The notes beneath the pieces are model-generated. The model was not told the DNA's origin, did not search any database, and saw nothing but the letters and a program-made list of their open reading frames with translations. From Patescibacteria group bacterium (GTDB lineage Bacteria; Patescibacteriota; Minisyncoccia; Phycocordibacterales; PALSA-1337): DNA of 64,000 nt. The stretch lies in assembly GCA_018971685.1 (NCBI GenBank), contig JAGXAG010000001.1, positions 90,396-154,395 on the forward strand. The letters are read 5' to 3'. Within the stretch, counting starts at the first letter, position 1. Each line of letters starts with the position of its first letter. Below are positions 45,736 to 56,400 of the stretch, in pieces. The translations under genes were made by a program, and so were the position numbers.

Positions 45736-45990
45736 ATGCCAACCGCAGAAACAACCGAAAATGAGATCAGGCGCCAAACATTCACCGGCGTCGTAACTTC
45801 CGACAAGATGAAAGATACGGCGGTTGTGACGATATCCAGATATGTGAAGCATCCGAAATACCATAAGTACCAAATGAAGAAGACCAAATTGCTGGCGCAC
45901 GATCCGGGCAACACCAAGAAAATCGGAGACAAGGCGACGGTGGAGGCGTGCCGGCCGATGTCTAAGAGAAAAGCCTTCAAGATAATATGA
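45736..45990 (+). CDS. rpsQ: 30S ribosomal protein S17
   Basis: GVVTSDKMKDTAVV...HDPGN..K.GD.V.I..CRP.SK.K. Confidence 0.9.
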   Translation: MPTAETTENEIRRQTFTGVVTSDKMKDTAVVTISRYVKHPKYHKYQMKKTKLLAHDPGNTKKIGDKATVEACRPMSKRKAFKII

Positions 45991-46358
45991 TACAACCGCG
46001 CACAATCGTAAATATCGCTGACAATTCCGGCGCCAAGATCGGACGCATATTCAAGGTGCTGGGTGCGACGAGGAAGAGATATGCCGAAATCGGCGACATC
46101 GTTGTTTTGTCGGTACAAAAGGCCGAGCCGCGCAAGACGGTCAAAAAGAAAGATGTTTTGCAAGCAGTCGTGGTCAGGCAATCTAAGCCGACGAGGAGAA
46201 AGGACGGTTCGTATGTCCGCTTTGACGAGAATGCGGTCGTGGTGCTGGAGAAGGGCAAGAAGGAGCCCTTGGCGGGACGCATTTTCGGGCCGATACCCAG
46301 AGAAATCGCGGATAAAGGATTCAAAACGATCGCGTCGAAAGCGGCGGAAATAGTTTAA
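45987..46358 (+). CDS. rplN: 50S ribosomal protein L14
   Basis: MIQPRTIVNIADNSGAK. Confidence 0.95.
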   Translation: MIQPRTIVNIADNSGAKIGRIFKVLGATRKRYAEIGDIVVLSVQKAEPRKTVKKKDVLQAVVVRQSKPTRRKDGSYVRFDENAVVVLEKGKKEPLAGRIFGPIPREIADKGFKTIASKAAEIV

Positions 46359-46362
46359 TACC

Positions 46363-46581
46363 ATGCATATCAAAAAAGGCGACACAGTCAAAATACTTTC
46401 CGGCGATGACAAAGGCAAAACCGCCAAGGTCGCCAAGGCCTTTCCAAAAGAAGGAAGGATTTTGATCGAAGGCGTGAATACGGTGAAGAAGCACGAGAGA
46501 TCGAGACAGCAAGACGGCAAAGGACAAGTGGTGGAGAAAGCAATGCCGATACGGGCTTCAAAGGTTTCAAAGGTTGGTTAA
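46363..46581 (+). CDS. rplX: 50S ribosomal protein L24
   Basis: MHIKKGDTVKILSGDDKGK KOW motif. Confidence 0.9.
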   Translation: MHIKKGDTVKILSGDDKGKTAKVAKAFPKEGRILIEGVNTVKKHERSRQQDGKGQVVEKAMPIRASKVSKVG

Positions 46582-46587
46582 AATCAA

Positions 46588-47130
46588 ATGGCATACAAAA
46601 CCACGCAAGAATTGAATAAGGATTCATTCAAGGCTTTGAAGGAAAAGCTTGCTTTGAAAAATCCGATGCAGGCGCCGAAGCTGGTGAAGGTGGCGGTTTC
46701 GAGCGGCTTCGGTTCCACCAAGGATCAGAAAAAAATCGGACTTATCGCGGACAGGCTGGCGAAGATCACGGGCCAAAAGCCGGCGACGCGCGCGGCGAAA
46801 AAGGCGATCGCGACCTTCAAGACCAGGACCGGCGATCCGTTGGCGTATCAAGTCACTTTGCGAGGCAAACAGATGCATGAATTCTTGGACCGGCTGATCC
46901 ACATCGCTCTGCCGCGCACCAAAGATTTCCGCGGCCTGCCGAGGACGGCGATCGACGCGATGGGCAATTATACTATCGGCGTGAAAGAGCACACTATTTT
47001 CCCGGAGACGGCGGATGAAGATCTGAAAGATGTCTTCGGCCTGGGGATCACGATCGTCACGACTTCGCGCGACAAAAAGGCGACTGAGGCGTTCCTGGAG
47101 CATTTGGGATTGCCGCTGAAAAGGGAGTAA
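46588..47130 (+). CDS. rplE: 50S ribosomal protein L5
   Basis: L5 family; position after L24. Confidence 0.9.
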   Translation: MAYKTTQELNKDSFKALKEKLALKNPMQAPKLVKVAVSSGFGSTKDQKKIGLIADRLAKITGQKPATRAAKKAIATFKTRTGDPLAYQVTLRGKQMHEFLDRLIHIALPRTKDFRGLPRTAIDAMGNYTIGVKEHTIFPETADEDLKDVFGLGITIVTTSRDKKATEAFLEHLGLPLKRE

Positions 47131-47209
47131 AATCGCGCTTCGTTGCCGACTTTTATGGTGTAAGAAATGTCTTTGCGGAATTTGCGCCTGACACTATAAT
47201 AGAGGAACG

Positions 47210-49198
47210 ATGACGCAAAAGGAGGCATTGGAAATATTGAAGACCGGCGCGAATGTTTTCTTGACAGGCGCGGCCGGAAGCGGCAAGACGCACATCCTGC
47301 GGGAATATTTGGCGTGTTTGAAAGAGCGTAAAATCCCGGTCGGAGTGACGGCTTCGACCGGCATTGCCGCCACGCATATGGGCGGAGTCACCATACATTC
47401 ATGGTCCGGAATAGGAGTCAAAGACCAATTGAGTGATTGGGACATAGACGAAATATCGCAGCGGGAAAAATTATCGGCCAGAATAAACGCCGCCAAAGTA
47501 CTGGTGATCGACGAAATCTCGATGCTGCACCACTATCAGCTGGACATGGTGAACCGCGTGCTCAAGTCTGTGCGCAATTCGCCGGAGCCGTTCGGCGGAT
47601 TGCAGGCGGTCGTCTGCGGGGACTTCTTCCAACTGCCGCCGGTCTCGCGCCGGCCGAGATCGTTCGACGCGGACGGGATGCTCTTTATCGACGACGATTA
47701 TGATGCGGACGGCAAAGCCAGGTTCGCGTACCATTCGCGGGCGTGGCGGGAGGCGGAGTTTGCGGTGTGCTATTTGGAGGAAAATTACAGGCAAAGCGAC
47801 GAACAATATTTGCAGGTGTTGAACGCGATCAGGAATTCCGCGGTCACCGATGAAATCGTTGAAATCTTGAAGAGTCGATTCAAGGCGGCAATTCCGCCGT
47901 CTGCTCTGCCAAATAAAGCGGTTGCCGAAGCGTCCCGCGGCACAAGTTTTTTGAGTTCCGCGACTCCGCCGCGAAGCAATCCGTCGCCGCGTTTCCCAAC
48001 CGACAAGTCCGTGTATGTCCGAGAGGGCTTGTCGGTTGCGGAAACGCCGACGGTTGCGAGCGGCATTCGCGGAACTCAAAAAACTTGTGCCGCGGGACGC
48101 GAATCTGTTACCAGATTGTATTCTCATAACGCCAATGTCGACGCGGAGAACGAGCGGGAGCTGGCGAAATTGAAAACGCCTTTGCAAAAATACGAAATGA
48201 CCGGGCGCGGCAAGAGACATTTGGTCGAAGCGCTCAAGAAGAGCTGTCTGGCGCCGGAAGTGTTGAAATTGAAAGATGGCGCCAAAGTGATGTTCGTGAA
48301 GAATAATTTCGAAAAAGGATTCGTGAACGGCACTACCGGGATCGTGAAGAAATGCACGCCGTTCGAAATCGTGGTGGCGACCGATAAAGGGCATGTGCGG
48401 GTCGAAACGGAGTCGTGGCACATCGAAGACAACGGCAAAATCCTGGCGGAAATCGAGCAGTACCCTCTGCGGCTGGCTTGGGCGATAACGATACACAAAA
48501 GCCAAGGCATGTCGCTGGATGCGGCGGAAATCGATCTGTCTCAGTCGTTCGAAAAAGGCATGGGCTATGTGGCGCTTTCCAGGGTGAAAACTTTGGATGG
48601 TCTATCGCTTTCCGGCCTGAATAAAACCGCGCTTGAGATACACGGAGAGGCGTTGGAGTACGACAAATCATTCAGGGAACAATCGGACAGAGCGGCGGCG
48701 GAATTGGCGGTTATGCCGGAAGAGGAATTGAAGAGAAGGCAAACAGGATTCTTGGGGCCGGAGCCGGCGCGCACAAATATGACCAGAAAATCCCACGCCT
48801 CGCGAAGCGAGGTACCCCCTTTTTCAAAGGGGGATTTCGCGCGGCGAGACCAGGAAACTGGTTCTGCGAATGGGTCCAGAGAACCGAAAATACCGACGAC
48901 GGAACGAACAAGGCGATTATTGGATGCCGGAATGACGGTGGGAGAAGCGGCGGCGGCCAGGGGGTTGAAGGCGGAGACTATCATCAACCATATCGGACTG
49001 ATCAAGCGCGCGGATGATTCTTGGGACATTTCGAGGTTCAGATCAATCATACCGGCCGACAGACTGGAGAAGATCATTGAAGCGTTCAACGGATCGAAAC
49101 CGGGCGCGGACGGCTTGCCGCCGCTCACTCCGGTAAAACAAAGATTGGGCGCGGGGTATTCGTATGAGGAGATAAAAATCGCGAGGCTGTTCCTGTGA
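47210..49198 (+). CDS. Pif1/RecD-family ATP-dependent DNA helicase
   Basis: Walker A FLTGAAGSGKTHIL, VLVIDEISML, GDFFQLPPV, TIHKSQGMSLD motifs; C-terminal HTH-like region. Confidence 0.8.
   Translation: MTQKEALEILKTGANVFLTGAAGSGKTHILREYLACLKERKIPVGVTASTGIAATHMGGVTIHSWSGIGVKDQLSDWDIDEISQREKLSARINAAKVLVIDEISMLHHYQLDMVNRVLKSVRNSPEPFGGLQAVVCGDFFQLPPVSRRPRSFDADGMLFIDDDYDADGKARFAYHSRAWREAEFAVCYLEENYRQSDEQYLQVLNAIRNSAVTDEIVEILKSRFKAAIPPSALPNKAVAEASRGTSFLSSATPPRSNPSPRFPTDKSVYVREGLSVAETPTVASGIRGTQKTCAAGRESVTRLYSHNANVDAENERELAKLKTPLQKYEMTGRGKRHLVEALKKSCLAPEVLKLKDGAKVMFVKNNFEKGFVNGTTGIVKKCTPFEIVVATDKGHVRVETESWHIEDNGKILAEIEQYPLRLAWAITIHKSQGMSLDAAEIDLSQSFEKGMGYVALSRVKTLDGLSLSGLNKTALEIHGEALEYDKSFREQSDRAAAELAVMPEEELKRRQTGFLGPEPARTNMTRKSHASRSEVPPFSKGDFARRDQETGSANGSREPKIPTTERTRRLLDAGMTVGEAAAARGLKAETIINHIGLIKRADDSWDISRFRSIIPADRLEKIIEAFNGSKPGADGLPPLTPVKQRLGAGYSYEEIKIARLFL
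47931..48099. repeat. Nested palindromic element inserted in-frame in the helicase CDS
   Basis: 32-nt perfect inverted arms (cgtcccgcggcacaagttttttgagttccgcg ... cgcggaactcaaaaaacttgtgccgcgggacg) flank about 105 nt that themselves hold imperfect inverted repeats. Confidence 0.85.
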
Positions 49199-49246
49199 GA
49201 GCAACTTTTTTATCAAAGGCGAAGTAATATATGTATTATAAAGGTA

Positions 49247-49843
49247 ATGACAAAAACAAACATGGCAAACAAAAATAAAGAAATATTGAAGATCGCAATA
49301 ATTATAGGTAGCACCAGGCCGGGCAGATTTGGCGACAAGCCGGCCAAGTGGATATACGAAGAGGCGAAAAGAACGGACGGGGTAGAGGCGGAATTGCTGG
49401 ATTTGCGGGATTATCCGATGCCTTTTTACGCCGAAGACCATTCGTTCAGCATGAATCCGGCGGTTTCCGACCAAACGGCGGAGAAATGGCAGGCGAAAAT
49501 CGGCGCGGCGGACGCTTTTGTCATCGTCACGCCGGAATACAACCACGGCCCCTCGGCAGTCTTGAAGAACGCGCTCGACTATGCGTACCGCGAATGGAAC
49601 GACAAGCCGGTTGCTTTCGTCGCTTATGGCAGTGTGGGCGGCGCCCGCGCGGTGGAACAATTGCGGCTGGTCGCGATCGAACTGCAAATGGCGCCGATCC
49701 GAAACGCGGTGCACATTCCGGCGCCGTGGTTCTTGGTTGACGGCAAAGGCGATCTGAAGCCGAATGCCCTGGATCCATTCAAGGACGCGGCAAAAAATAT
49801 GCTGGAACAACTGGTAAGATGGGGGAGGGTGATGAAAAGATAG
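49247..49843 (+). CDS. NAD(P)H-dependent FMN reductase (flavodoxin-like, SsuE/YieF family)
   Basis: IAIIIGSTRPGRF... and VIVTPEYNHGPSAVLKNALDY motifs. Confidence 0.8.
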   Translation: MTKTNMANKNKEILKIAIIIGSTRPGRFGDKPAKWIYEEAKRTDGVEAELLDLRDYPMPFYAEDHSFSMNPAVSDQTAEKWQAKIGAADAFVIVTPEYNHGPSAVLKNALDYAYREWNDKPVAFVAYGSVGGARAVEQLRLVAIELQMAPIRNAVHIPAPWFLVDGKGDLKPNALDPFKDAAKNMLEQLVRWGRVMKR

Positions 49844-50214
49844 ATTCAGAGCTAGATAAAGGGTGGGTACAAATTGTACATACCCTTAGCATAAACACTG
49901 CAGGAGGGACGCTGAAAGTGCTTTGTGCCAATACCGAGGGCATATTCCGCATCATTCAATCTATTCCATCGCCCAAGGCTGAGCCGTTCAAACGCTGGCT
50001 GGCGAGGGTTGGCTACGAGCGCATTCAGGAGATTGAAGACCCGGAGCTGGCCACCAAGCGCACCCGCGCCCTTTATAAAGCCAAGGGCTATGATGATGCC
50101 TGGATCGAGAAGCGCATGCGCGGTATTGCCGTTCGCGAAAAATTGACCGATGAGTGGCAGAAACGGGGGATTAGACTCTCAGGATTCGCGACCTATTGTC
50201 GTAAATTCAGTTGA
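49819..50214 (+). pseudogene. Remnant of a Bro-N/DinD-like (phage antirepressor-type) protein lacking its N-terminus
   Basis: SPKAEPFKRWLA resembles the Bro-N KPEAKxFKRWV motif; the first ~60 aa of the domain are missing; overlaps the end of the FMN reductase gene. Confidence 0.35.
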
Positions 50215-50277
50215 GTCCGCAATCCACAAGGAATTGCGGTGTGCAGATTTTATTTTCGGTATCTACACAGTTGACCG

Positions 50278-50508
50278 TTAGGTTTTGATAAAACCCTGAA
50301 AATCTTCGGCTGGAACGGCGCCCCATCCTCTGGGAACATTGTCGACGATGCTCACAGCGATAATGGAACTCTTTCCCAGCTTTCCAATTTCCGTTCGGAC
50401 CTTCTCAACAAAAGCGTCGGCTTCTTCGGTACCCTTGAGAGGACCGTAAAAGCTTCGACTCGTGCTAGAAGTTCCGACACCAGTTAGGATAAGTGCGTAC
50501 TTTTCCAT
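50278..50508 (-). CDS. Hypothetical 76-aa protein, second gene of an unknown two-gene operon
   Basis: ATG 1 nt after the upstream gene's TAA; no recognisable domain. Confidence 0.35.
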   Translation of the reverse strand: MEKYALILTGVGTSSTSRSFYGPLKGTEEADAFVEKVRTEIGKLGKSSIIAVSIVDNVPRGWGAVPAEDFQGFIKT

Positions 50509-50509
50509 G

Positions 50510-51676
50510 TTAACAAACTTCGCTAAGCGCTCCCTTGGGTAACGACCCCTGTGGCAACCTGTCCTTGCGAACTATGCACGGTCTTACCTGCACGATTTTC
50601 GGTGCGGACGGATTGTCTCCTGTGCCAGGCGCTCGCCGCCAGTGACCTCGACGGAAGTGTGCCGATATTTCGACCAGTGTTGAACGCGCACTTGAAGAAA
50701 TCACTCTGAGAGCTTCTTTCTCATCAGTTGATAACTTGTGACAGAAATCAACCGAGCAAACGAGCGCTTCCTTTGTGATAACAGTCGCGTCTTTGGTCGG
50801 ATTCGGCACTCTCTGCCAATCACTTGCATGGCTTGACTCCGAGGGCAGGGTTTTGAGATATAGGCATAAGCCCACGACAAGACGCTTAATCATTTCGAAC
50901 TCAGCGTGCTCATCGAAGTTTTCGATGCGTGTCTCGTTTGTGACCTTGTCGAAATACTCGATACCATCACTCTGCTCCTCCGTAACTTTCCCGAATGTGT
51001 ACGGGATGTACGAAACGGCGGCGAATGTATCGGCTTTCTGGTCACTTGCCTTGGCGAGTAGTTCACTCGCAGTACCCCAACGGCGTTTACTGATCGCTTC
51101 CCGAATCCGCTGACGCACATACGGGGAGATTGCAGGAATTTCGCAGTAGCCTGGCGCAAATGCACGAATGCACATGGTATCTTCCTTGCACGCAATCCCC
51201 GTCTCTCGCGAGAATAGGATGCAGTCAAGTTGATGTCCACGAGAATCGCGGATCGGCGTCTCCAGGGTGATAGCGAATGAATCGAATGGCCAAGGCACCT
51301 CATCCCAACAAATGTCAGAAAGAGAAGTGGCCATCAGAATGTGGGCGAGATCGGACGACAGATGGAACACTCGCCGGGAATACTTGGTCCAAGCAGTCAG
51401 ACTGCAGGGTAAGAATTCCAGAAAGTGACCGGCTGTCGCCACGGCCTTGCGGACCTCGTCAACTCCGACATACTTGCTGTAGTCAAACTCTTCCGAGTGG
51501 CATTTGAGCAAGTACTTGCGGAAATTGAAGGCGTTAACCAGAGGACCTTGTTCGGGTAGAACAAGGTCGGGATGTTGACCGCTTGCCCTGCTTAGGATTG
51601 ACTCCGTTTGCAGGTGAAAGCAGTAGTTTTCCCAACGGCGCAGAGCGCCTTCGAGGTGCAGAATGTTCGTTTTCAT
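50510..51676 (-). CDS. Hypothetical 388-aa protein (unknown function; possible defence/accessory gene)
   Basis: Long ORF with no recognised motifs; Cys-rich central region; sits between RhuM/Bro-N-like remnants. Confidence 0.4.
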   Translation of the reverse strand: MKTNILHLEGALRRWENYCFHLQTESILSRASGQHPDLVLPEQGPLVNAFNFRKYLLKCHSEEFDYSKYVGVDEVRKAVATAGHFLEFLPCSLTAWTKYSRRVFHLSSDLAHILMATSLSDICWDEVPWPFDSFAITLETPIRDSRGHQLDCILFSRETGIACKEDTMCIRAFAPGYCEIPAISPYVRQRIREAISKRRWGTASELLAKASDQKADTFAAVSYIPYTFGKVTEEQSDGIEYFDKVTNETRIENFDEHAEFEMIKRLVVGLCLYLKTLPSESSHASDWQRVPNPTKDATVITKEALVCSVDFCHKLSTDEKEALRVISSSARSTLVEISAHFRRGHWRRAPGTGDNPSAPKIVQVRPCIVRKDRLPQGSLPKGALSEVC

Positions 51677-51980
51677 GCTGTTTCAATGTTCTGTTCAGTG
51701 ACTTCCGAAAATTTACCTCTTGTAAGTATAGCATACTACGACATAAAAATCAAGAGCTGTCTAACAAGCTGCGGAATTATACAAGGAATTATAGAGATGG
51801 GAAAATAAATCCGGAAAATGACTGAAGCAGAACATTTTCGGCGGGTTTGGTGTAGAATATTCGCATGAATGACGAAAATGGCGAAAAAATTGATGAAAGT
51901 ATTCAGAGCGCGCCTGATAAGATGAAAAATAAATAAACTATGAAAAAGAAGCATATACAAAAGAATGTGGTGATATTCTA

Positions 51981-52154
51981 ATGGACAGAGAATTGGATGC
52001 CAATTCAGTATGTGCAAATTTTGCACATACTGCCGAGGACGGAAAAACATACCAAGTCAGATTTTATAATCTCGATGTTATCTTGTCTGTCGGGTACAGA
52101 ACCAATTCAGTACGGGCAGTAGAATTTAGGAAATGGACAATGTCCGATTACTGA
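51981..52154 (+). pseudogene. Fragment of a RhuM-family (Virulence_RhuM) gene
   Basis: DGKTYQVRFYNLDVILSVGYRTNSVRAVEFRKW matches the RhuM core (YNLDaIIsVGYRV.S..g.qFR.WAT); an upstream in-frame TAA and a premature stop after 57 aa. Confidence 0.5.
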
Positions 52155-52347
52155 AGTCCGACCTCAGTAATCCAAAAGAAAAACGATTAACTAACCGCTA
52201 TTGACGAAAACCCCCAAGGTTTGCTAGTATCAAAATACCTCAAAAAGGCAGTTTGCGAGGAAATGATTGGAAGCAGGCCGCGCGGCGGGAACGAAAAGCC
52301 GGCGGGGAGCTAACCAATCAAATTTTAATTGAGGAAATAAACAATTC

Positions 52348-52533
52348 ATGGCAACAAGCGCGATGATAGCCAGATCGGCCAAGAAGCCGAAATTCAAATC
52401 CAGAGTCGTCCGGCGCTGTTTTCGTTGCGGCCGCAAGCGCGCATATATGAGGGATTTCGACATGTGCAGGATCTGCTTCAGGGAATTCGCCAATGAAGGC
52501 ATGATTCCCGGCATCAAAAAATCGTCATGGTAA
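52348..52533 (+). CDS. rpsN: 30S ribosomal protein S14 type Z (zinc-binding)
   Basis: 61 aa; CxxC...CxxC (CFRCGRKRAY...CRICFRE). Confidence 0.9.
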   Translation: MATSAMIARSAKKPKFKSRVVRRCFRCGRKRAYMRDFDMCRICFREFANEGMIPGIKKSSW

Positions 52534-52913
52534 CAGACCCAGTATCGGATTTGATCATAAGAATCAAGAACGGCAGCGATGCCGGACTTGGTGTTGTGGC
52601 CGTGACCAAATCAAAATTGATTGAAAATATCGCGCACGCGCTCAAAAAGGCCGGCTTCGTTTCTTCGGTTGAAAAAGGCAAGAATGACCGAGAATTGGCG
52701 CTCGGCATCATCTACTTCGATGGTGCGCCGCGGATACACGGAGTCGAACGGATCTCGAAGCCGTCGCGCAGAATATACCAAAAATCGCGCGACATCAGGG
52801 GATACAAGAGCGGATTCGGCAATGTGATATTGTCCACGCCAAAGGGAATATTTACGGATGTCGAGGCGCGGAAGATGAAAGTTGGAGGAGAGGTGTTGTT
52901 TCGAATTTGGTGA
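52527..52913 (+). CDS. rpsH: 30S ribosomal protein S8
   Basis: MVTDPVSDLIIRIKNG. Confidence 0.9.
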   Translation: MVTDPVSDLIIRIKNGSDAGLGVVAVTKSKLIENIAHALKKAGFVSSVEKGKNDRELALGIIYFDGAPRIHGVERISKPSRRIYQKSRDIRGYKSGFGNVILSTPKGIFTDVEARKMKVGGEVLFRIW

Positions 52914-52939
52914 AGTTAAAGAAATTATAATTTATCAAA

Positions 52940-53473
52940 ATGGCCCGCAACGCTAAAAAACCGATAATCCTGCCGCCGAAGACCGAAGCTTCTTTTTCGG
53001 GCGGCGTGATGGCGGTCAAGGGGCCGCTTGGTGAATTGAGAATGCCCTTTAAGGAAGGCGTGAAAATAACGATCGCCGACGGCAAAATATTGTTCGAGCC
53101 GGCGGCGGATACGATCCGGGTCCGGGAATTGTGGGGCAGTTATGCGGCGCATACCAGGAATATGATCGCCGGCGTAAACAAGCCGTATGAGAAAAAGCTG
53201 GCTATCGAAGGCATCGGTTACAAGGCCGATGTCAAAGGCAATGAGTTGGTTTTGTCGGTCGGATTTTCGCATCAAGTGAATCTGCCTATACCGGCCGGAG
53301 TCAAAGTAGTGTCGGACAAAAACGGCATTGCCGTAAGCGGCATCGATAAGGAAAAGGTCGGGCAATTCGCGGCGGTAATAAGGGCGACGAAAAAGCCGGA
53401 ACCGTATCTGGGAAAAGGGATCAGGTATGCCGATGAGATTATCAGGAGAAAACAGGGCAAGAAGGCGGCATAA
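52940..53473 (+). CDS. rplF: 50S ribosomal protein L6
   Basis: Two-domain L6 pattern; position after S8. Confidence 0.9.
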   Translation: MARNAKKPIILPPKTEASFSGGVMAVKGPLGELRMPFKEGVKITIADGKILFEPAADTIRVRELWGSYAAHTRNMIAGVNKPYEKKLAIEGIGYKADVKGNELVLSVGFSHQVNLPIPAGVKVVSDKNGIAVSGIDKEKVGQFAAVIRATKKPEPYLGKGIRYADEIIRRKQGKKAA

Positions 53474-53491
53474 TATACAGACTATACGAAT

Positions 53492-53845
53492 ATGAAAAAC
53501 GCATTACAGATAAAAAATCAAAAATTCGAAAGGCGCCGCAAGAGAATCAGGGCGAAAATTTCGGGCACGAAGGAAAGGCCGAGATTGTCGATTTTCAAAT
53601 CGCATAAATATGTTTATGTACAGCTCGTCGATGACGACAATGGTTGTACGCTCGCCGCATTTAATTCAAGGAAAGTAAAGGGCAAAACGCCGGCGGAAAG
53701 AGCCAAAGAAGTCGGGTTGGGGCTTGCCAAGGAAGCATTGGCGGTTAAGATAAAAAGAGCGGTATTCGACAAAGGCGGATATCTCTATGCCGGCAAGATC
53801 AAATTGGTGGCGGAAGGGGCGAGAGAGGGAGGGCTTGAATTTTAG
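53492..53845 (+). CDS. rplR: 50S ribosomal protein L18
   Basis: RLSIFKSHKYVYVQLVDD... Confidence 0.9.
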   Translation: MKNALQIKNQKFERRRKRIRAKISGTKERPRLSIFKSHKYVYVQLVDDDNGCTLAAFNSRKVKGKTPAERAKEVGLGLAKEALAVKIKRAVFDKGGYLYAGKIKLVAEGAREGGLEF

Positions 53846-53857
53846 GCAAAAAACAAA

Positions 53858-54598
53858 ATGAAAGACGACGAAATAAAAATCGAAAATGAACAGGAAGCCG
53901 CAATCGAGGCGGTCGACTCAACAGAGCCGGTCGAATCGGTGGAGCCGACGGAACCAGTCGAAACGGCAGAATCTGCGCCGGAAACGGTAATCGCGCCTGC
54001 CGCGCCGAGAGGCAAAGTTACGATGGGCAAAAGGATGCGCGATACGGCCAGAAAGGGCGGCCGCGGCGCGCGTGCAAACGGCGGAGACAGGATGGGCAGA
54101 GAACGGGGCCGCGGCGGCGAAAACAGGGAGAGGATCAAGCCGGAATTCGACGCCAAGATGATCGACATCAGGCGCGTGGCGCGCGTGGTTGCCGGCGGTC
54201 GCAGATACAACTTCAGCGTAGCGGTGGTCGCGGGAGACGGCAAGGGGCGCGTGGGGGTGGGTTTGGGCAAAGGCGCGGACACGGCGCTCGCCGTCGAGAA
54301 GGCGACGCGTGAAGCCAAGAAACATCTAATAAAGGTCCCGCTCTCGCCGCAAATGACGATACCTCACGCTGTCGAAGCGAAATATTCGAGCGGGCGCATC
54401 ATGTTGTTCCCGGCGCGCGGCAGCGGCGTGGTCGCCGGCAGTTCGGCGCGCACGGTCATCGAAATGGCCGGCATCAAGGATATTTGCGCCAAAATAATGT
54501 CTGGTTCGAAAAATAAGGTCAACATCGCGAAAGCGACAGTCGAAGCGTTGAATAGCCTGATCAAAATGCCAAGGACTATGATAATGCCGAAAAAGTAA
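53858..54598 (+). CDS. rpsE: 30S ribosomal protein S5 (acidic N-terminal extension)
   Basis: IDIRRVARVVAGGRRYNFSV...GLGKG S5 dsRBD-like motifs; the extension contains PVESVEPTEPVET repeats. Confidence 0.9.
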   Translation: MKDDEIKIENEQEAAIEAVDSTEPVESVEPTEPVETAESAPETVIAPAAPRGKVTMGKRMRDTARKGGRGARANGGDRMGRERGRGGENRERIKPEFDAKMIDIRRVARVVAGGRRYNFSVAVVAGDGKGRVGVGLGKGADTALAVEKATREAKKHLIKVPLSPQMTIPHAVEAKYSSGRIMLFPARGSGVVAGSSARTVIEMAGIKDICAKIMSGSKNKVNIAKATVEALNSLIKMPRTMIMPKK

Positions 54599-54633
54599 AT
54601 TCTGGTTTACTCGACATGTTTAATTTATAAAAA

Positions 54634-55098
54634 ATGCAAACTCACCAACTAAAACGCAATCATCCGAACCGCAAGCGTATGATCGTGGCGCGCGGCGGCC
54701 ATCGCGGCAAGACATCGGGCCGCGGCGGCAAAGGACAGACAGCTCGCGCCGGCAACAAGCGCCGGCCGGAATGGCGCGATATCATAAAGAGATTGCCGAA
54801 ATTGCGCGGCCGCGGCGTCAATTCGCATAAATCGATCCAAACAAAGCCGGTGATTGTAAATCTGAACGCGATTGAAGAAATATTCGCCAATGGCGATAAA
54901 GTTACGCCGGCGATCCTGATGGAAAACGGCGTGATCGCGACGGTTTCCGGCAAAGTTCAGGCAGTCAAAATATTGGGCGGCGGGGAATTGACCAAAGGAA
55001 TTAAAGTAAGCGGATGCAAAGTGTCAGAAGCGGCCAAATCCAAGATCGAAAAAGCGGGCGGGTCGATAGAAATAATAAAAAGCAAAGTAGCAAGTTAA
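54634..55098 (+). CDS. rplO: 50S ribosomal protein L15
   Basis: Gly/Arg-rich N-terminus GRGGKGQTARAG; follows S5 directly with no L30 gene between. Confidence 0.9.
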   Translation: MQTHQLKRNHPNRKRMIVARGGHRGKTSGRGGKGQTARAGNKRRPEWRDIIKRLPKLRGRGVNSHKSIQTKPVIVNLNAIEEIFANGDKVTPAILMENGVIATVSGKVQAVKILGGGELTKGIKVSGCKVSEAAKSKIEKAGGSIEIIKSKVAS

Positions 55099-55101
55099 TC
55101 T

Positions 55102-56400
55102 GTGGTCAGTTGGCGGCATATGCAAGATTTTTCTCAAAAATTTATGAATGCCCTGAAAGATCCGACTCTGAGAAAGCGTATCGGTTTTACGATAATTGCG
55201 CTTGTTCTCTTCAGGGTATTGGCGGCTATTCCGATTCCCGGTGTCGATGCGGCTAACTTGGCGAAACTGCTGTCGTCGAGCCAATTGTTCGGATTTTTCA
55301 GTATTTTCTCCGGCAGCGGCCTTTCGAACTTGTCGATCGTCATGTTGGGCGTAGGCCCGTTCATCACGGCTTCGATCGTCATCCAATTGCTTACAATGAT
55401 GCTGCCTCGATGGAAAGCGCTGATGCACGAAGAGGGCGAGGCCGGCCGCATGAAATTGTCTCAGTATTCGCGTCTGCTCTCGGTGCCGCTGGCTCTCATC
55501 TCGGCGGTCGGCTTTATCGAGCTTTTGCAGTCGCAAGGCGTATTGCCGCATCTGGGTATCGCGTCATTGATTTTCAATGCGGTGGTTATCACCGCCGGAT
55601 CGACCTTGTTGATGTGGATTGGCGAATTGATTTCGGAATTTGGCGTTGGCAATGGAGTGTCGCTCATTATTTTTGCCGGTATAATTTCGCGTCTGCCGAC
55701 CGACTCTATGCAGGCTTATACAAGGCTTTCCGGCGACATGTCGCTTTTGCCGGTATACCTCATAATCCTGGCGGTTTCGGTGGTGATCGTGGCGGGAGTG
55801 GTGTATGTGACGGAGGCGGAACGGTCGGTGCCGATAACTTATGCCAAGCAAGTGCGCGGCAACAAAGTCTACGGCGGCGCGGCGACATATCTGCCGTTGC
55901 GCCTGAACCAGGCCGGCGTTATCCCGATAATCTTCGCGCTTTCGATCATAATTTTCCCGAGAATAATAGCCGGCGCGCTTTCAAAGGTGTCGAATGACAC
56001 TATCGCGAGCTTTGCCGTGTGGGTTTCGGGCGTTTTCAACAACCAGTGGGTATACGGCACGCTGTATTTCATCCTGGTGGTGGCTTTCACTTATTTCTAC
56101 ACGGCGGTTACTTTTGACCCCAAGATGATCTCCGAAAATCTCCAGCGTTCGGGCGCGTTCGTTCCGGGAGTCAGGCCGGGCGAGCACACGGAACACCATC
56201 TGGCGAACATTGTCACACGCATCACGCTGGTCGGCGCGCTATTCCTGGGCATCGTGGCGGTCTTGCCGTTCATCATCCAGGCTTTCACTCAAGGAGACCA
56301 GTCGGTCGCTATCGGCGGCACGGCATTACTCATCGTGGTTTCGGTGGTTATCGATCTCCTGAAGAAGATAGAGGCGCAAGTGGCGATGCGGGAGTATTGA
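55102..56400 (+). CDS. secY: Preprotein translocase subunit SecY
   Basis: Ten-TM protein ...LRKRIGFTIIALVLFRVLAAIPIPGVD; the true start may be an internal Met. Confidence 0.9.
   Translation: MVSWRHMQDFSQKFMNALKDPTLRKRIGFTIIALVLFRVLAAIPIPGVDAANLAKLLSSSQLFGFFSIFSGSGLSNLSIVMLGVGPFITASIVIQLLTMMLPRWKALMHEEGEAGRMKLSQYSRLLSVPLALISAVGFIELLQSQGVLPHLGIASLIFNAVVITAGSTLLMWIGELISEFGVGNGVSLIIFAGIISRLPTDSMQAYTRLSGDMSLLPVYLIILAVSVVIVAGVVYVTEAERSVPITYAKQVRGNKVYGGAATYLPLRLNQAGVIPIIFALSIIIFPRIIAGALSKVSNDTIASFAVWVSGVFNNQWVYGTLYFILVVAFTYFYTAVTFDPKMISENLQRSGAFVPGVRPGEHTEHHLANIVTRITLVGALFLGIVAVLPFIIQAFTQGDQSVAIGGTALLIVVSVVIDLLKKIEAQVAMREY

What the first reader, a model, noticed from the sequence alone, without database searches (positions are those of the whole stretch)
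49819..52154. Unknown two-gene operon (388 aa + 76 aa) flanked by decayed Bro-N/DinD-like and RhuM-like genes inside the ribosomal operon
Two minus-strand ORFs, 50510-51676 and 50278-50508, are separated by a single nucleotide (TAA-C-ATG). They have no motifs I can assign. On both sides sit fragments of Bro-N/DinD-like and RhuM-family genes, which typically ride with phage or defence islands. The RhuM copy carries an in-frame stop and is truncated. This context suggests a degraded mobile or defence island whose live cargo is the uncharacterised pair. That pair is a candidate for a novel accessory or defence function.
Basis: inference. Interest (0 to 1): 0.55.

Follow-up and report, generated by a model that had tools for sequence, protein, structure and literature searches.

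The report
Divergent AcrVA2-like gene pair in ribosomal-operon hotspot
The "unknown" 388-aa gene is a remote relative of the anti-CRISPR AcrVA2 and the plasmid fertility inhibitor FinQ (proteins that silence a chosen target by destroying its mRNA during translation), and with a small lineage-specific partner gene it sits in a variable slot inside the ribosomal-protein operon of an ultrasmall (CPR) bacterium.

Summary
Two intact minus-strand ORFs (388 aa, 76 aa; TAA-C-ATG) lie between a truncated Bro-N/PDC-S13 gene and a truncated RhuM gene, between rplE (L5) and rpsN (S14) of a Patescibacteria genome.

The claim of no assignable family does not hold. The 388-aa protein belongs to a large clade of about 1,000 clusters at 50% identity, found mostly in CPR genomes. 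This clade is remotely related to AcrVA2/FinQ (Pfam PF26125). Four lines support this:
- precomputed Pfam hits;
- hhalign at 80% probability over 239 collinear columns;
- top PDB fold hits are AcrVA2, and BFVD hits include an AcrVA2 homologue;
- a conserved HxRxxH motif matches the AcrVA2 residues essential for mRNA down-regulation.

The 76-aa gene is real (dN/dS 0.19) but is found only in close relatives, always one nucleotide after the AcrVA2-like gene. Its function is unknown.

The pair forms a cassette whose 3' end coincides with the truncation point of the PDC-S13 gene. The L5|S14 junction is a recurrent cargo hotspot in related genomes.

Most likely the 388-aa protein is a target-specific, translation-coupled mRNA-silencing factor used in genetic conflict, with an unknown target. 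I rate this a new variant of a known kind, of moderate interest.

The parts
50510..51676 (-). 388-aa AcrVA2/FinQ-like protein of a CPR-enriched clade. It has variable N-terminal and middle regions and a conserved C-terminal H340-F-R342-R-G-H345-W-R-R...VRPxIVRKDRL tail.
   Evidence: family. (PF26125). (hhalign 79-80%). (fold). (dN/dS 0.09). (conservation profile).
50278..50508 (-). 76-aa partner ORF starting one nucleotide after the stop of the 388-aa gene, which suggests translational coupling. It is lineage-specific and of unknown function.
   Evidence: (two other homologues, 84-89% identical). (same 1-nt junction behind an AcrVA2-like C-terminus). (dN/dS 0.19). (no family; low-confidence beta-beta-alpha-beta-alpha model).
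50170..50277 (-). Conserved 3' untranslated end of the cassette, with three consecutive hairpins. It ends where homology to PDC-S13 stops.
   Evidence: MFE -32.4 kcal/mol, z = -4.1. (conserved with L004 down to about 50172). (PDC-S13 homology ends at 50175).
51677..51980 (-). AT-rich (41% GC) non-coding leader upstream of the 388-aa gene, with two sigma-70-like promoter matches (51803->51776 and 51753->51725).
49819..50214 (+). Fragment of a Bro-N / PADLOC PDC-S13 gene (profile 55-165 of 286). Its 5' end overlaps the FMN reductase stop, and its 3' end is cut at about 50175 by the cassette.
   Evidence: An intact 283-aa orthologue lies in L054 at the equivalent hotspot.
51981..52154 (+). Fragment of a RhuM-family (PADLOC PDC-S05) gene, truncated at both ends.
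47210..49198 (+). PIF1/RecD-like helicase with a C-terminal HTH_40 domain. It is an older resident of the same slot and is shared by several relatives. It carries an in-frame palindromic insertion.
49247..49843 (+). NADPH-dependent FMN reductase, a further cargo gene of the slot.
46588..47130 (+). rplE (L5), the left border of the variable slot.
52348..52533 (+). rpsN (S14, short zinc-type), the right border of the slot. It is preceded by a promoter-like site at 52201-52230.

Best explanation
The 388-aa protein is a divergent member of the AcrVA2/FinQ family (Pfam PF26125), in a clade enriched in CPR bacteria.

Inferred mechanism, by analogy with AcrVA2:
- The variable N-terminal and middle parts bind a specific target polypeptide, probably while it is still being translated.
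- The conserved basic C-terminal module (HxRxxH followed by G-x-G and VRPxIVR) then triggers loss of the target's mRNA.
- The net effect is to switch off one chosen protein of a competing genetic element or of a defence system.
- The target here is unknown and need not be Cas12a.

The 76-aa gene is a translationally coupled accessory protein specific to this lineage.

The two genes, their AT-rich promoter region and a hairpin-rich 3' end form a cassette of about 1.8 kb. It landed in a hypervariable cargo slot between rplE and rpsN, cutting off the 3' part of a Bro-N/PDC-S13 gene.

Shown: family relationship (remote), intactness and purifying selection, cassette boundary, and the hotspot. Inferred: target binding, the translation-coupled mRNA decay mechanism, and the conflict role.
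For: Family:
- Precomputed PF26125 'AcrVA2-like' hits fall on the window protein (weak) and on 18 of 22 close homologues. Several tandem paralogues in L005 have hits at E<=1e-5.
- hhalign of the CPR-clade profile against an AcrVA2-family profile gives Prob 79-80% and E 1.4e-5. It covers 217-239 collinear columns, residues 94-369 against 93-351.
- That alignment pairs W96 with W79 and H340/R342/H345 with H286/R288/H291. Those histidine and arginine residues abolish mRNA down-regulation when mutated, and W79A causes a moderate loss of function (bioRxiv 10.1101/2022.11.29.518452).
- H340 is invariant and R342 near-invariant in 74 diverse members.

Fold:
- The AF2 model (pLDDT 79.5, pTM 0.79) has AcrVA2 structures 7ci1 and 7ci2 as its top three hits among 350,542 PDB chains, though weakly.
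- In BFVD it hits full-length phage proteins at prob 0.99-1.0. One is the Erwinia phage RisingSun protein, which AcrVA2 itself finds by tblastn at E 2e-7.

Modular evolution:
- The C-terminal 40 residues are the most conserved and the middle is the most variable.
- Six compared paralogues of the L005 tandem array (at least 7 copies) are 38-53% identical overall but about 90% identical in the C-terminal fifth.

Selection: dN/dS is 0.09 and 0.19.

Cassette and hotspot.
Against: - The relationship is remote. Identity to AcrVA2 is about 12%. HMM-to-sequence cross hits reach only 18 bits or less and mostly cover the C-terminal motif.
- A profile search of PDB sequences finds nothing. Foldseek against AcrVA2 gives E 0.16 and TM 0.26-0.32.
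- I could not check the Pfam gathering threshold, because the local Pfam copy lacks PF26125: AcrVA2 itself scores nothing in it.
- AcrVA2 D89 aligns to S107, not to an acidic residue.
- The C-terminal module is modelled with pLDDT below 50.
- Unlike AcrVA2 and FinQ, this clade is absent from sequenced phages and plasmids and nearly absent from IMG/VR. Its neighbours are mostly housekeeping genes.
- Even for AcrVA2, the way mRNA is destroyed is unknown.
Confidence: 0.6

Rival explanations
1. The biochemistry is the same but the side is opposite. The CPR clade would be a chromosomally retained (domesticated) exclusion or immunity factor. Each paralogue would recognise a nascent protein of a phage or plasmid and silence its mRNA, as plasmid-borne FinQ does to the F transfer genes.
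For: - The clade is found in 35 GTDB genomes, about 29 of them Patescibacteria. It is absent from phage and plasmid collections and nearly absent from IMG/VR.
- Neighbours are housekeeping genes with no integrase or phage enrichment.
- A tandem array of at least 7 diversified paralogues with a constant C-terminus looks like a recognition repertoire.
- FinQ provides a precedent for exclusion of a competitor.
- The slot in relatives carries defence-type cargo.
Against: - There is no experimental data for any member of the clade.
- PADLOC has no model for it.
- CPR phages and plasmids are badly under-sampled, so absence from mobile-element databases is weak evidence.
- One homologue lies beside a prophage-like block.
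- Enrichment next to tRNA and 16S genes fits mobile cargo as well as it fits domestication.
Confidence: 0.25
2. The pair is a selfish toxin-antidote (addiction) cassette. The 388-aa protein would damage host mRNA or translation, and the translationally coupled 76-aa protein would neutralise it. This would keep the cassette fixed in the slot.
For: - The arrangement is a two-gene unit with a 1-nt junction.
- It moves as a unit: the same pair and 3' end occur in another context in L004.
- The slot in relatives carries MazF/PemK toxins.
Against: - The 76-aa gene is missing next to every other family member examined, including relatives about 50% identical. The large protein is therefore not generally toxic on its own.
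- The gene order (large gene first) and the absence of any TA-family hit are atypical.
- AcrVA2 expression in Pseudomonas down-regulated only cas12a.
Confidence: 0.1
3. The 388-aa protein is unrelated to AcrVA2 apart from a convergent short basic motif, and has a different, unknown function (for example an RNA- or ribosome-binding factor linked to translation).
For: - Cross-family HMM hits are weak and centred on the HxRRGHW motif.
- The PDB fold match is not significant.
- Many copies lie next to 16S rRNA, tRNA or ribosomal-protein genes.
Against: - The profile-profile alignment is collinear over about 240 columns. It includes the N-terminal W motif and the LxLYL/LLWL helix, not just the C-terminal motif.
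- The independently curated Pfam model hits the clade.
- BFVD fold hits at prob 0.99-1.0 include a protein that is a sequence homologue of AcrVA2.
Confidence: 0.15

Closest known systems
AcrVA2 (Moraxella bovoculi prophage anti-CRISPR; PDB 7CI1/7CI2; Pfam PF26125 AcrVA2-like)
   Same: - The two proteins have a collinear architecture.
- The N-terminal Trp is conserved (W79 / W96).
- The essential C-terminal H-x-R-R-G-H-W motif is shared, followed by G-x-G and a hydrophobic/basic strand.
- AcrVA2 is the top PDB fold hit.
- Both show the pattern of variable recognition parts with a constant C-terminus.
   Different: - Identity is about 12%, and the window protein is 66 residues longer.
- AcrVA2 D89 is not matched by an acidic residue.
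- The window gene is chromosomal in CPR bacteria rather than prophage-borne.
- There is no AcrVA1 neighbour.
- It has a coupled 76-aa partner.
- The target is unknown, and nothing here indicates Cas12a.
FinQ (fertility inhibition protein of IncI1 and related conjugative plasmids)
   Same: - It shares the C-terminal H-I-R-R-G-H-W ... P-x-V module (hhalign Prob 66%).
- It is a homologue of AcrVA2 (25% identity, E 5e-11).
- It acts on a competitor's gene expression rather than on CRISPR (paper).
   Different: - FinQ is plasmid-borne: it occurs in 594 PLSDB records, 559 of them conjugative.
- Only the C-terminal module aligns to the CPR clade with a single sequence.
Phage AcrVA2-like proteins of jumbo Erwinia/Dickeya phages and uncultured siphoviruses (BFVD)
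   Same: They give the best structural matches to the model: prob 0.97-1.0, 244-367 aligned columns, and similar length (260-420 aa). The RisingSun protein among them is also found by AcrVA2 tblastn.
   Different: They are viral. There is no detectable sequence similarity to the window protein by tblastn.
acr-aca operons / type II toxin-antitoxin pairs
   Same: Both are small two-gene operons with tightly coupled ORFs on accessory DNA.
   Different: The 76-aa partner has no helix-turn-helix or antitoxin family hit. Its predicted topology is beta-beta-alpha-beta-alpha. It is not conserved with the family.

Membership tests
AcrVA2-like (Pfam PF26125; AcrVA2/FinQ) | Significant match to the family profile | tested here: inconclusive
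   The window protein has a precomputed PF26125 hit marked 'weak' (1e-5 < E <= 1e-3). Paralogues in L005 have unmarked hits at E<=1e-5. I could not check the gathering score because the local Pfam copy lacks the model. The independent hhalign comparison of family profiles gives Prob 80% and E 1.4e-5.
AcrVA2-like (Pfam PF26125; AcrVA2/FinQ) | C-terminal H-x-R-x-x-H motif (AcrVA2 H286/R288/H291, required for mRNA down-regulation) | tested here: met
   The window protein has H340-F-R342-R-G-H345-W. H340 is invariant and R342 is conserved in at least 90% of 74 clade members. The motif aligns in register with AcrVA2 and FinQ. The functional role of the residues comes from the paper.
AcrVA2-like (Pfam PF26125; AcrVA2/FinQ) | Conserved N-terminal Trp and Asp (AcrVA2 W79 and D89) | tested here: inconclusive
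   W96 is invariant in the clade and aligns to W79. D89 aligns to S107, and the nearest acidic residue is D109, two positions later.
AcrVA2-like (Pfam PF26125; AcrVA2/FinQ) | Fold like the AcrVA2 crystal structure (three domains) | tested here: inconclusive
AcrVA2-like (Pfam PF26125; AcrVA2/FinQ) | Carried by a phage, prophage or plasmid (typical of the family, not strictly defining) | tested here: not met
   There is no tblastn hit in 50,697 phage or 72,556 plasmid records, and only one partial hit in IMG/VR. Neighbours in 31 loci are housekeeping genes. The window copy does lie in a cargo hotspot and behaves as a cassette.
AcrVA2-like (Pfam PF26125; AcrVA2/FinQ) | Binds a target polypeptide and lowers its mRNA in a translation-dependent way; inhibits Cas12a | not testable with these tools
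   This needs expression, RNA-seq or pull-down experiments.
Bro-N / PADLOC PDC-S13 (DinD-like) gene | Full-length match to the 286-position profile | tested here: not met
   Only profile positions 55-165 are present. Homology to the intact L054 orthologue stops at window position 50175. The gene is a remnant.
RhuM family (PF13310 / PADLOC PDC-S05) | Full-length match (about 250-330 aa) | tested here: not met
   Only Pfam positions 1-49 of 252 are present, in a 57-aa ORF 194 nt from S14. The gene is a remnant.
acr-aca operon | Partner is a helix-turn-helix Aca regulator | tested here: not met
   The 76-aa protein has no HTH or any other family hit. Its AF2 topology is beta-beta-alpha-beta-alpha at low confidence.
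Known anti-phage defence systems (PADLOC) | Match of either protein of the pair to a defence-system model | tested here: not met
   Neither protein matched any family at E<=1.

The most novel reading that the evidence does not exclude
CPR/Patescibacteria may have retained and massively diversified AcrVA2-like proteins as a chromosomal repertoire of factors that silence mRNAs by recognising nascent peptides. The features consistent with this are about 1,000 clusters, tandem arrays of at least 7 paralogues with a constant C-terminal effector tail, and copies preferentially beside tRNA, 16S rRNA and ribosomal-protein genes. On this reading the family would be a new kind of innate immunity or host-manipulation system in these episymbionts, not a mobile-element counter-defence. 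The 76-aa protein would be a lineage-specific adaptor or regulator.
Probability: 0.2. Interest if true: 0.75.

Novelty: new variant of a known kind. Interest (0 to 1): 0.45.

Why it matters
AcrVA2 is so far the only prokaryotic protein reported to destroy a specific mRNA after recognising the nascent polypeptide, and how it does so is unsolved. A very large and divergent clade keeps only the C-terminal HxRxxH module and a few N-terminal anchors while everything else varies. That pattern marks out the likely effector part and the likely specificity part of the family, and it provides hundreds of natural specificity variants to test.

The clade is concentrated in CPR bacteria, which mostly lack CRISPR-Cas (my background knowledge). 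This suggests the family's main role is not anti-CRISPR.

Separately, the rplE|rpsN junction of the otherwise rigid spc ribosomal operon is a recurrent cargo slot in this lineage. That is an unusual piece of genome architecture.

Tried and rejected
- Direct hmmscan of both proteins against local Pfam, PADLOC, PHROGs and NCBIfam gave nothing. The Pfam negative is uninformative because the local copy lacks PF26125.
- phmmer and profile searches of PDB sequences gave no hit.
- The A3 alignment was too diverse for the search for related loci, so I used A1 instead.
- The 76-aa protein has only two other homologues. Its AF2 model has pLDDT 58.6. Foldseek gave only generic small alpha/beta folds at E>=0.44. 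No assignment was possible.
- I looked for a conserved operon partner or mobile-element hallmarks around 31 family loci and found none.
- I looked for flanking direct or inverted repeats that would delimit the cassette or the island. Only short, chance-level repeats turned up.
- Housekeeping-enzyme and non-coding readings are rejected.
- A genuine Cas12a-directed anti-CRISPR was considered, but nothing here supports it. The genome beyond the window could not be checked for Cas12a.
Full report
**Observation**

The window region 45987-56400 is the S10/spc ribosomal-protein cluster (L14, L24, L5 ... S14, S8, L6, L18, S5, L15, SecY). About 5.2 kb of unrelated DNA lies between L5 (ends 47130) and S14 (starts 52348):
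- a PIF1/RecD-like helicase with an HTH_40 tail (47210-49198, +);
- an FMN reductase (49247-49843, +);
- a Bro-N / PADLOC PDC-S13 fragment (49819-50214, +);
- the two minus-strand ORFs of the finding (76 aa, 50278-50508; 388 aa, 50510-51676);
- an AT-rich 300-nt leader;
- a RhuM / PDC-S05 fragment (51981-52154, +).

The junction TAA-C-ATG is as described. The region 49701-52400 is 100% identical, and the gene order the same, in an NCBI assembly (GCA_028865255.1, Patescibacteria) and a Logan assembly; a third, shorter Logan contig is 100% identical over 50092-52031. The insertion in the operon is therefore real.

**Are the ORFs genes?**

Yes.
- The 388-aa protein has 22 word-indexed homologues. 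In an exhaustive profile search it has 1,047 clusters at 50% identity with E<=1e-3 and 476 with E<=1e-30, nearly all 380-420 aa.
- A copy 87% identical at the nucleotide level in another sample (L004) gives dN/dS of 0.09 for the last 115 codons of the 388-aa gene. The 76-aa gene gives 0.19, against 1.3-1.5 in the two shifted frames.

**What is the 388-aa protein?**

Local hmmscans found nothing. However, the protein database carries precomputed Pfam hits to PF26125 on the window protein and on 18 of its 22 homologues. The locus tool names this family 'AcrVA2-like'. Several tandem paralogues in L005 have hits at E<=1e-5. The local Pfam copy lacks this model, because AcrVA2 itself scores nothing in it. 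The local negative is therefore meaningless.

I tested the lead independently.
1. I verified an AcrVA2 sequence against PDB 7CI1 (identical). I collected 70 AcrVA2 homologues and compared family profiles.
   - hhalign gives Prob 79-80% and E 1.4-1.6e-5 over 217-239 collinear columns, window residues 94-369 against AcrVA2 profile columns 93-351 of 359.
   - The alignment puts W96 on AcrVA2 W79.
   - It puts H340-x-R342-x-x-H345 on H286-x-R288-x-x-H291.
2. According to Marino et al. (bioRxiv 10.1101/2022.11.29.518452), H286, R288 and H291 are needed for AcrVA2 to lower Cas12a mRNA, and W79A causes a moderate loss of function. H286A/R288A/H291A mutants still bind Cas12a.
3. In 74 diverse clade members, H340, W96, S100, R101, P130 and R53 are invariant, and R342, G344 and R347 are conserved in at least 90%.
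4. An AlphaFold2 model (pLDDT 79.5, pTM 0.79; the C-terminal tail is below 50) has AcrVA2 chains as its top three of 350,542 PDB chains. These hits are weak (E 0.16-0.45, TM 0.24-0.32).
5. Against viral predicted structures, the model hits full-length phage proteins of 320-420 aa at prob 0.99-1.0. One of them is the Erwinia phage RisingSun 'putative mycothiosynthase', and AcrVA2 finds that same gene by tblastn (E 2e-7). This bridges fold and sequence.
6. FinQ of IncI plasmids is found by AcrVA2 in 594 plasmids. It shares the same C-terminal module with the clade (Prob 66%).

Against this, the relationship is remote.
- Cross-family HMM-to-sequence scores are 18 bits or less.
- PDB sequence searches are empty.
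- AcrVA2 D89 aligns to a serine.

I put family membership at about 0.8.

**How it probably works**

The conservation profile is modular. Residues 341-380 are the most conserved (1.3-1.5 bits of entropy). Residues 101-140 and 261-280 come next. Residues 21-40, 61-80 and 161-260 are variable.

In L005 at least seven paralogues stand in tandem. The six compared are 38-53% identical overall but about 90% identical in the last fifth. This fits a constant effector tail joined to diversifying recognition surfaces.

The model described for AcrVA2 is that the protein binds a short motif in the nascent N-terminus of its target and the target's mRNA is lost in a translation-dependent way. By inference the window protein silences one specific protein of a competitor or of a defence system. 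The target is unknown. The chemistry of mRNA loss is unknown even for AcrVA2.

**The 76-aa partner**

- Only two other homologues were found (84-89% identical). Each starts one nucleotide after a stop codon: in L004 the upstream ORF is confirmed as an AcrVA2-like C-terminus, while for P0025 the upstream 108-residue partial gene could not be read.
- Relatives about 50% identical, and all other clade loci, have unrelated downstream genes.
- No family, PDB or fold assignment was possible.
- It is a real, lineage-specific add-on of unknown function. It shows no Aca-type HTH and no antitoxin signature.

**Cassette and island**

Similarity to L004 runs from inside the 388-aa gene, through the 76-aa gene and a 3' UTR with three hairpins (z = -4.1), to about window position 50172. 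Beyond that point L004 has a different neighbour.

Homology of the Bro-N/PDC-S13 fragment to an intact 283-aa orthologue (L054) stops at 50175. The cassette end therefore coincides with the truncation point of that gene. I could not define the 5' end of the cassette. No delimiting repeats were found.

**The slot**

I retrieved 80 metagenomic loci by their L5 protein (54-87% identity).
- L5 and S14 are less than 450 nt apart in 13 loci.
- They are 600-7,080 nt apart in 25 loci.
- No S14 or S8 follows within at least 2 kb in 11 more.

The cargo includes PIF1 helicases, ECF sigma factors, MazF/PemK toxins, MFS transporters, an intact PDC-S13, RhuM/PDC-S05 and SspH-like genes. So the rplE|rpsN junction is a recurrent cargo hotspot in this lineage. 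A promoter-like site precedes S14 in the window.

**Distribution of the clade**

- In one genome per GTDB species I found 35 loci, about 29 in Patescibacteria (Saccharibacteria, Uhrbacteria, Paceibacterota and others).
- There is no tblastn hit in INPHARED phages or PLSDB plasmids, and one partial hit in IMG/VR.
- Neighbours are diverse housekeeping genes.
- 4 loci lie within about 0.25-1.5 kb of the 16S rRNA gene.
- 8 of 35 loci lie within 300 nt of a tRNA gene, against 2 of 169 control genes. That control set is tRNA-poor.

This differs from the phage and plasmid habitat of AcrVA2 and FinQ. It leaves open whether the clade is mobile cargo at classical insertion sites or a domesticated repertoire. 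No paper in the searchable library links AcrVA2 to Patescibacteria.

**Verdict**

It is wrong that the pair has no assignable family, and it leans to the wrong side, since the known relatives act in counter-defence or competitor silencing rather than defence. I rate it a new variant of a known kind, of moderate interest.

Noticed in passing
window 46588-52533; loci L047-L126: The rplE (L5) | rpsN (S14) junction of the spc operon is a hypervariable cargo slot in relatives of this organism. The gap is under 450 nt in 13 loci and 600-7,080 nt in 25. In 11 more loci no S14 or S8 follows within at least 2 kb. Cargo includes PIF1 helicases, ECF sigma factors, MazF toxins, PDC-S13, RhuM and SspH-like genes.
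   Followed up: partly
L005 8001-17224 (ENA ERZ28533575 NODE_3614): A tandem array of at least 7 AcrVA2-like paralogues. The six compared are 38-53% identical overall but about 90% identical in the C-terminal fifth. One copy is split into 241-aa and 178-aa ORFs. L016 has two copies 3 kb apart.
   Followed up: partly
L020, L022, L027, L029; L002, L012, L013, L014, L017, L023, L025, L034: About one third of the clade's loci lie beside stable-RNA genes. Four are within about 0.25-1.5 kb of the 3' end of the 16S rRNA gene. Eight are within 300 nt of a tRNA gene, against 2 of 169 control genes. Two of the 16S-adjacent contigs are binned as Gammaproteobacteria and Bdellovibrionales and may be mis-binned.
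   Followed up: partly
window 47930-47963 and 48067-48100: A perfect 34-nt inverted repeat, with arms 103 nt apart and unique in the window, lies inside the PIF1-like helicase ORF. It sits within an in-frame stretch of about 65 aa that orthologous helicases in L081, L084, L085 and L089 lack. It looks like a palindromic (MITE-like) insertion tolerated in a linker.
   Followed up: partly
window 52201-52230 (+): A sigma-70-like promoter match (TTGACG-18-TAGTAT with a TG extension) lies 118 nt upstream of S14. This suggests the distal half of the split ribosomal operon has its own promoter.
   Followed up: no
L128 1318-2409 (E. coli IncI1 plasmid NZ_CP122501.1): finQ is annotated as 259 aa (1630-2409). 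The ORF and the AcrVA2 similarity both extend upstream to a 363-aa reading frame starting at 1318, so the RefSeq start may be too short.
   Followed up: partly
L001 1-6657: A homologue about 49% identical lies 1.4 kb from a prophage-like block (SU10 portal, Phage_rep_O, N6_N4 methyltransferase), separated from it by a YchF GTPase gene.
   Followed up: no
L127 8001-8120 (IMGVR_UViG_3300027807_000003, 134 kb): This is the only IMG/VR match. It is a C-terminal-motif-only hit (residues 321-372, 42% identity) in a large viral contig and may belong to another AcrVA2-like subfamily.
   Followed up: no
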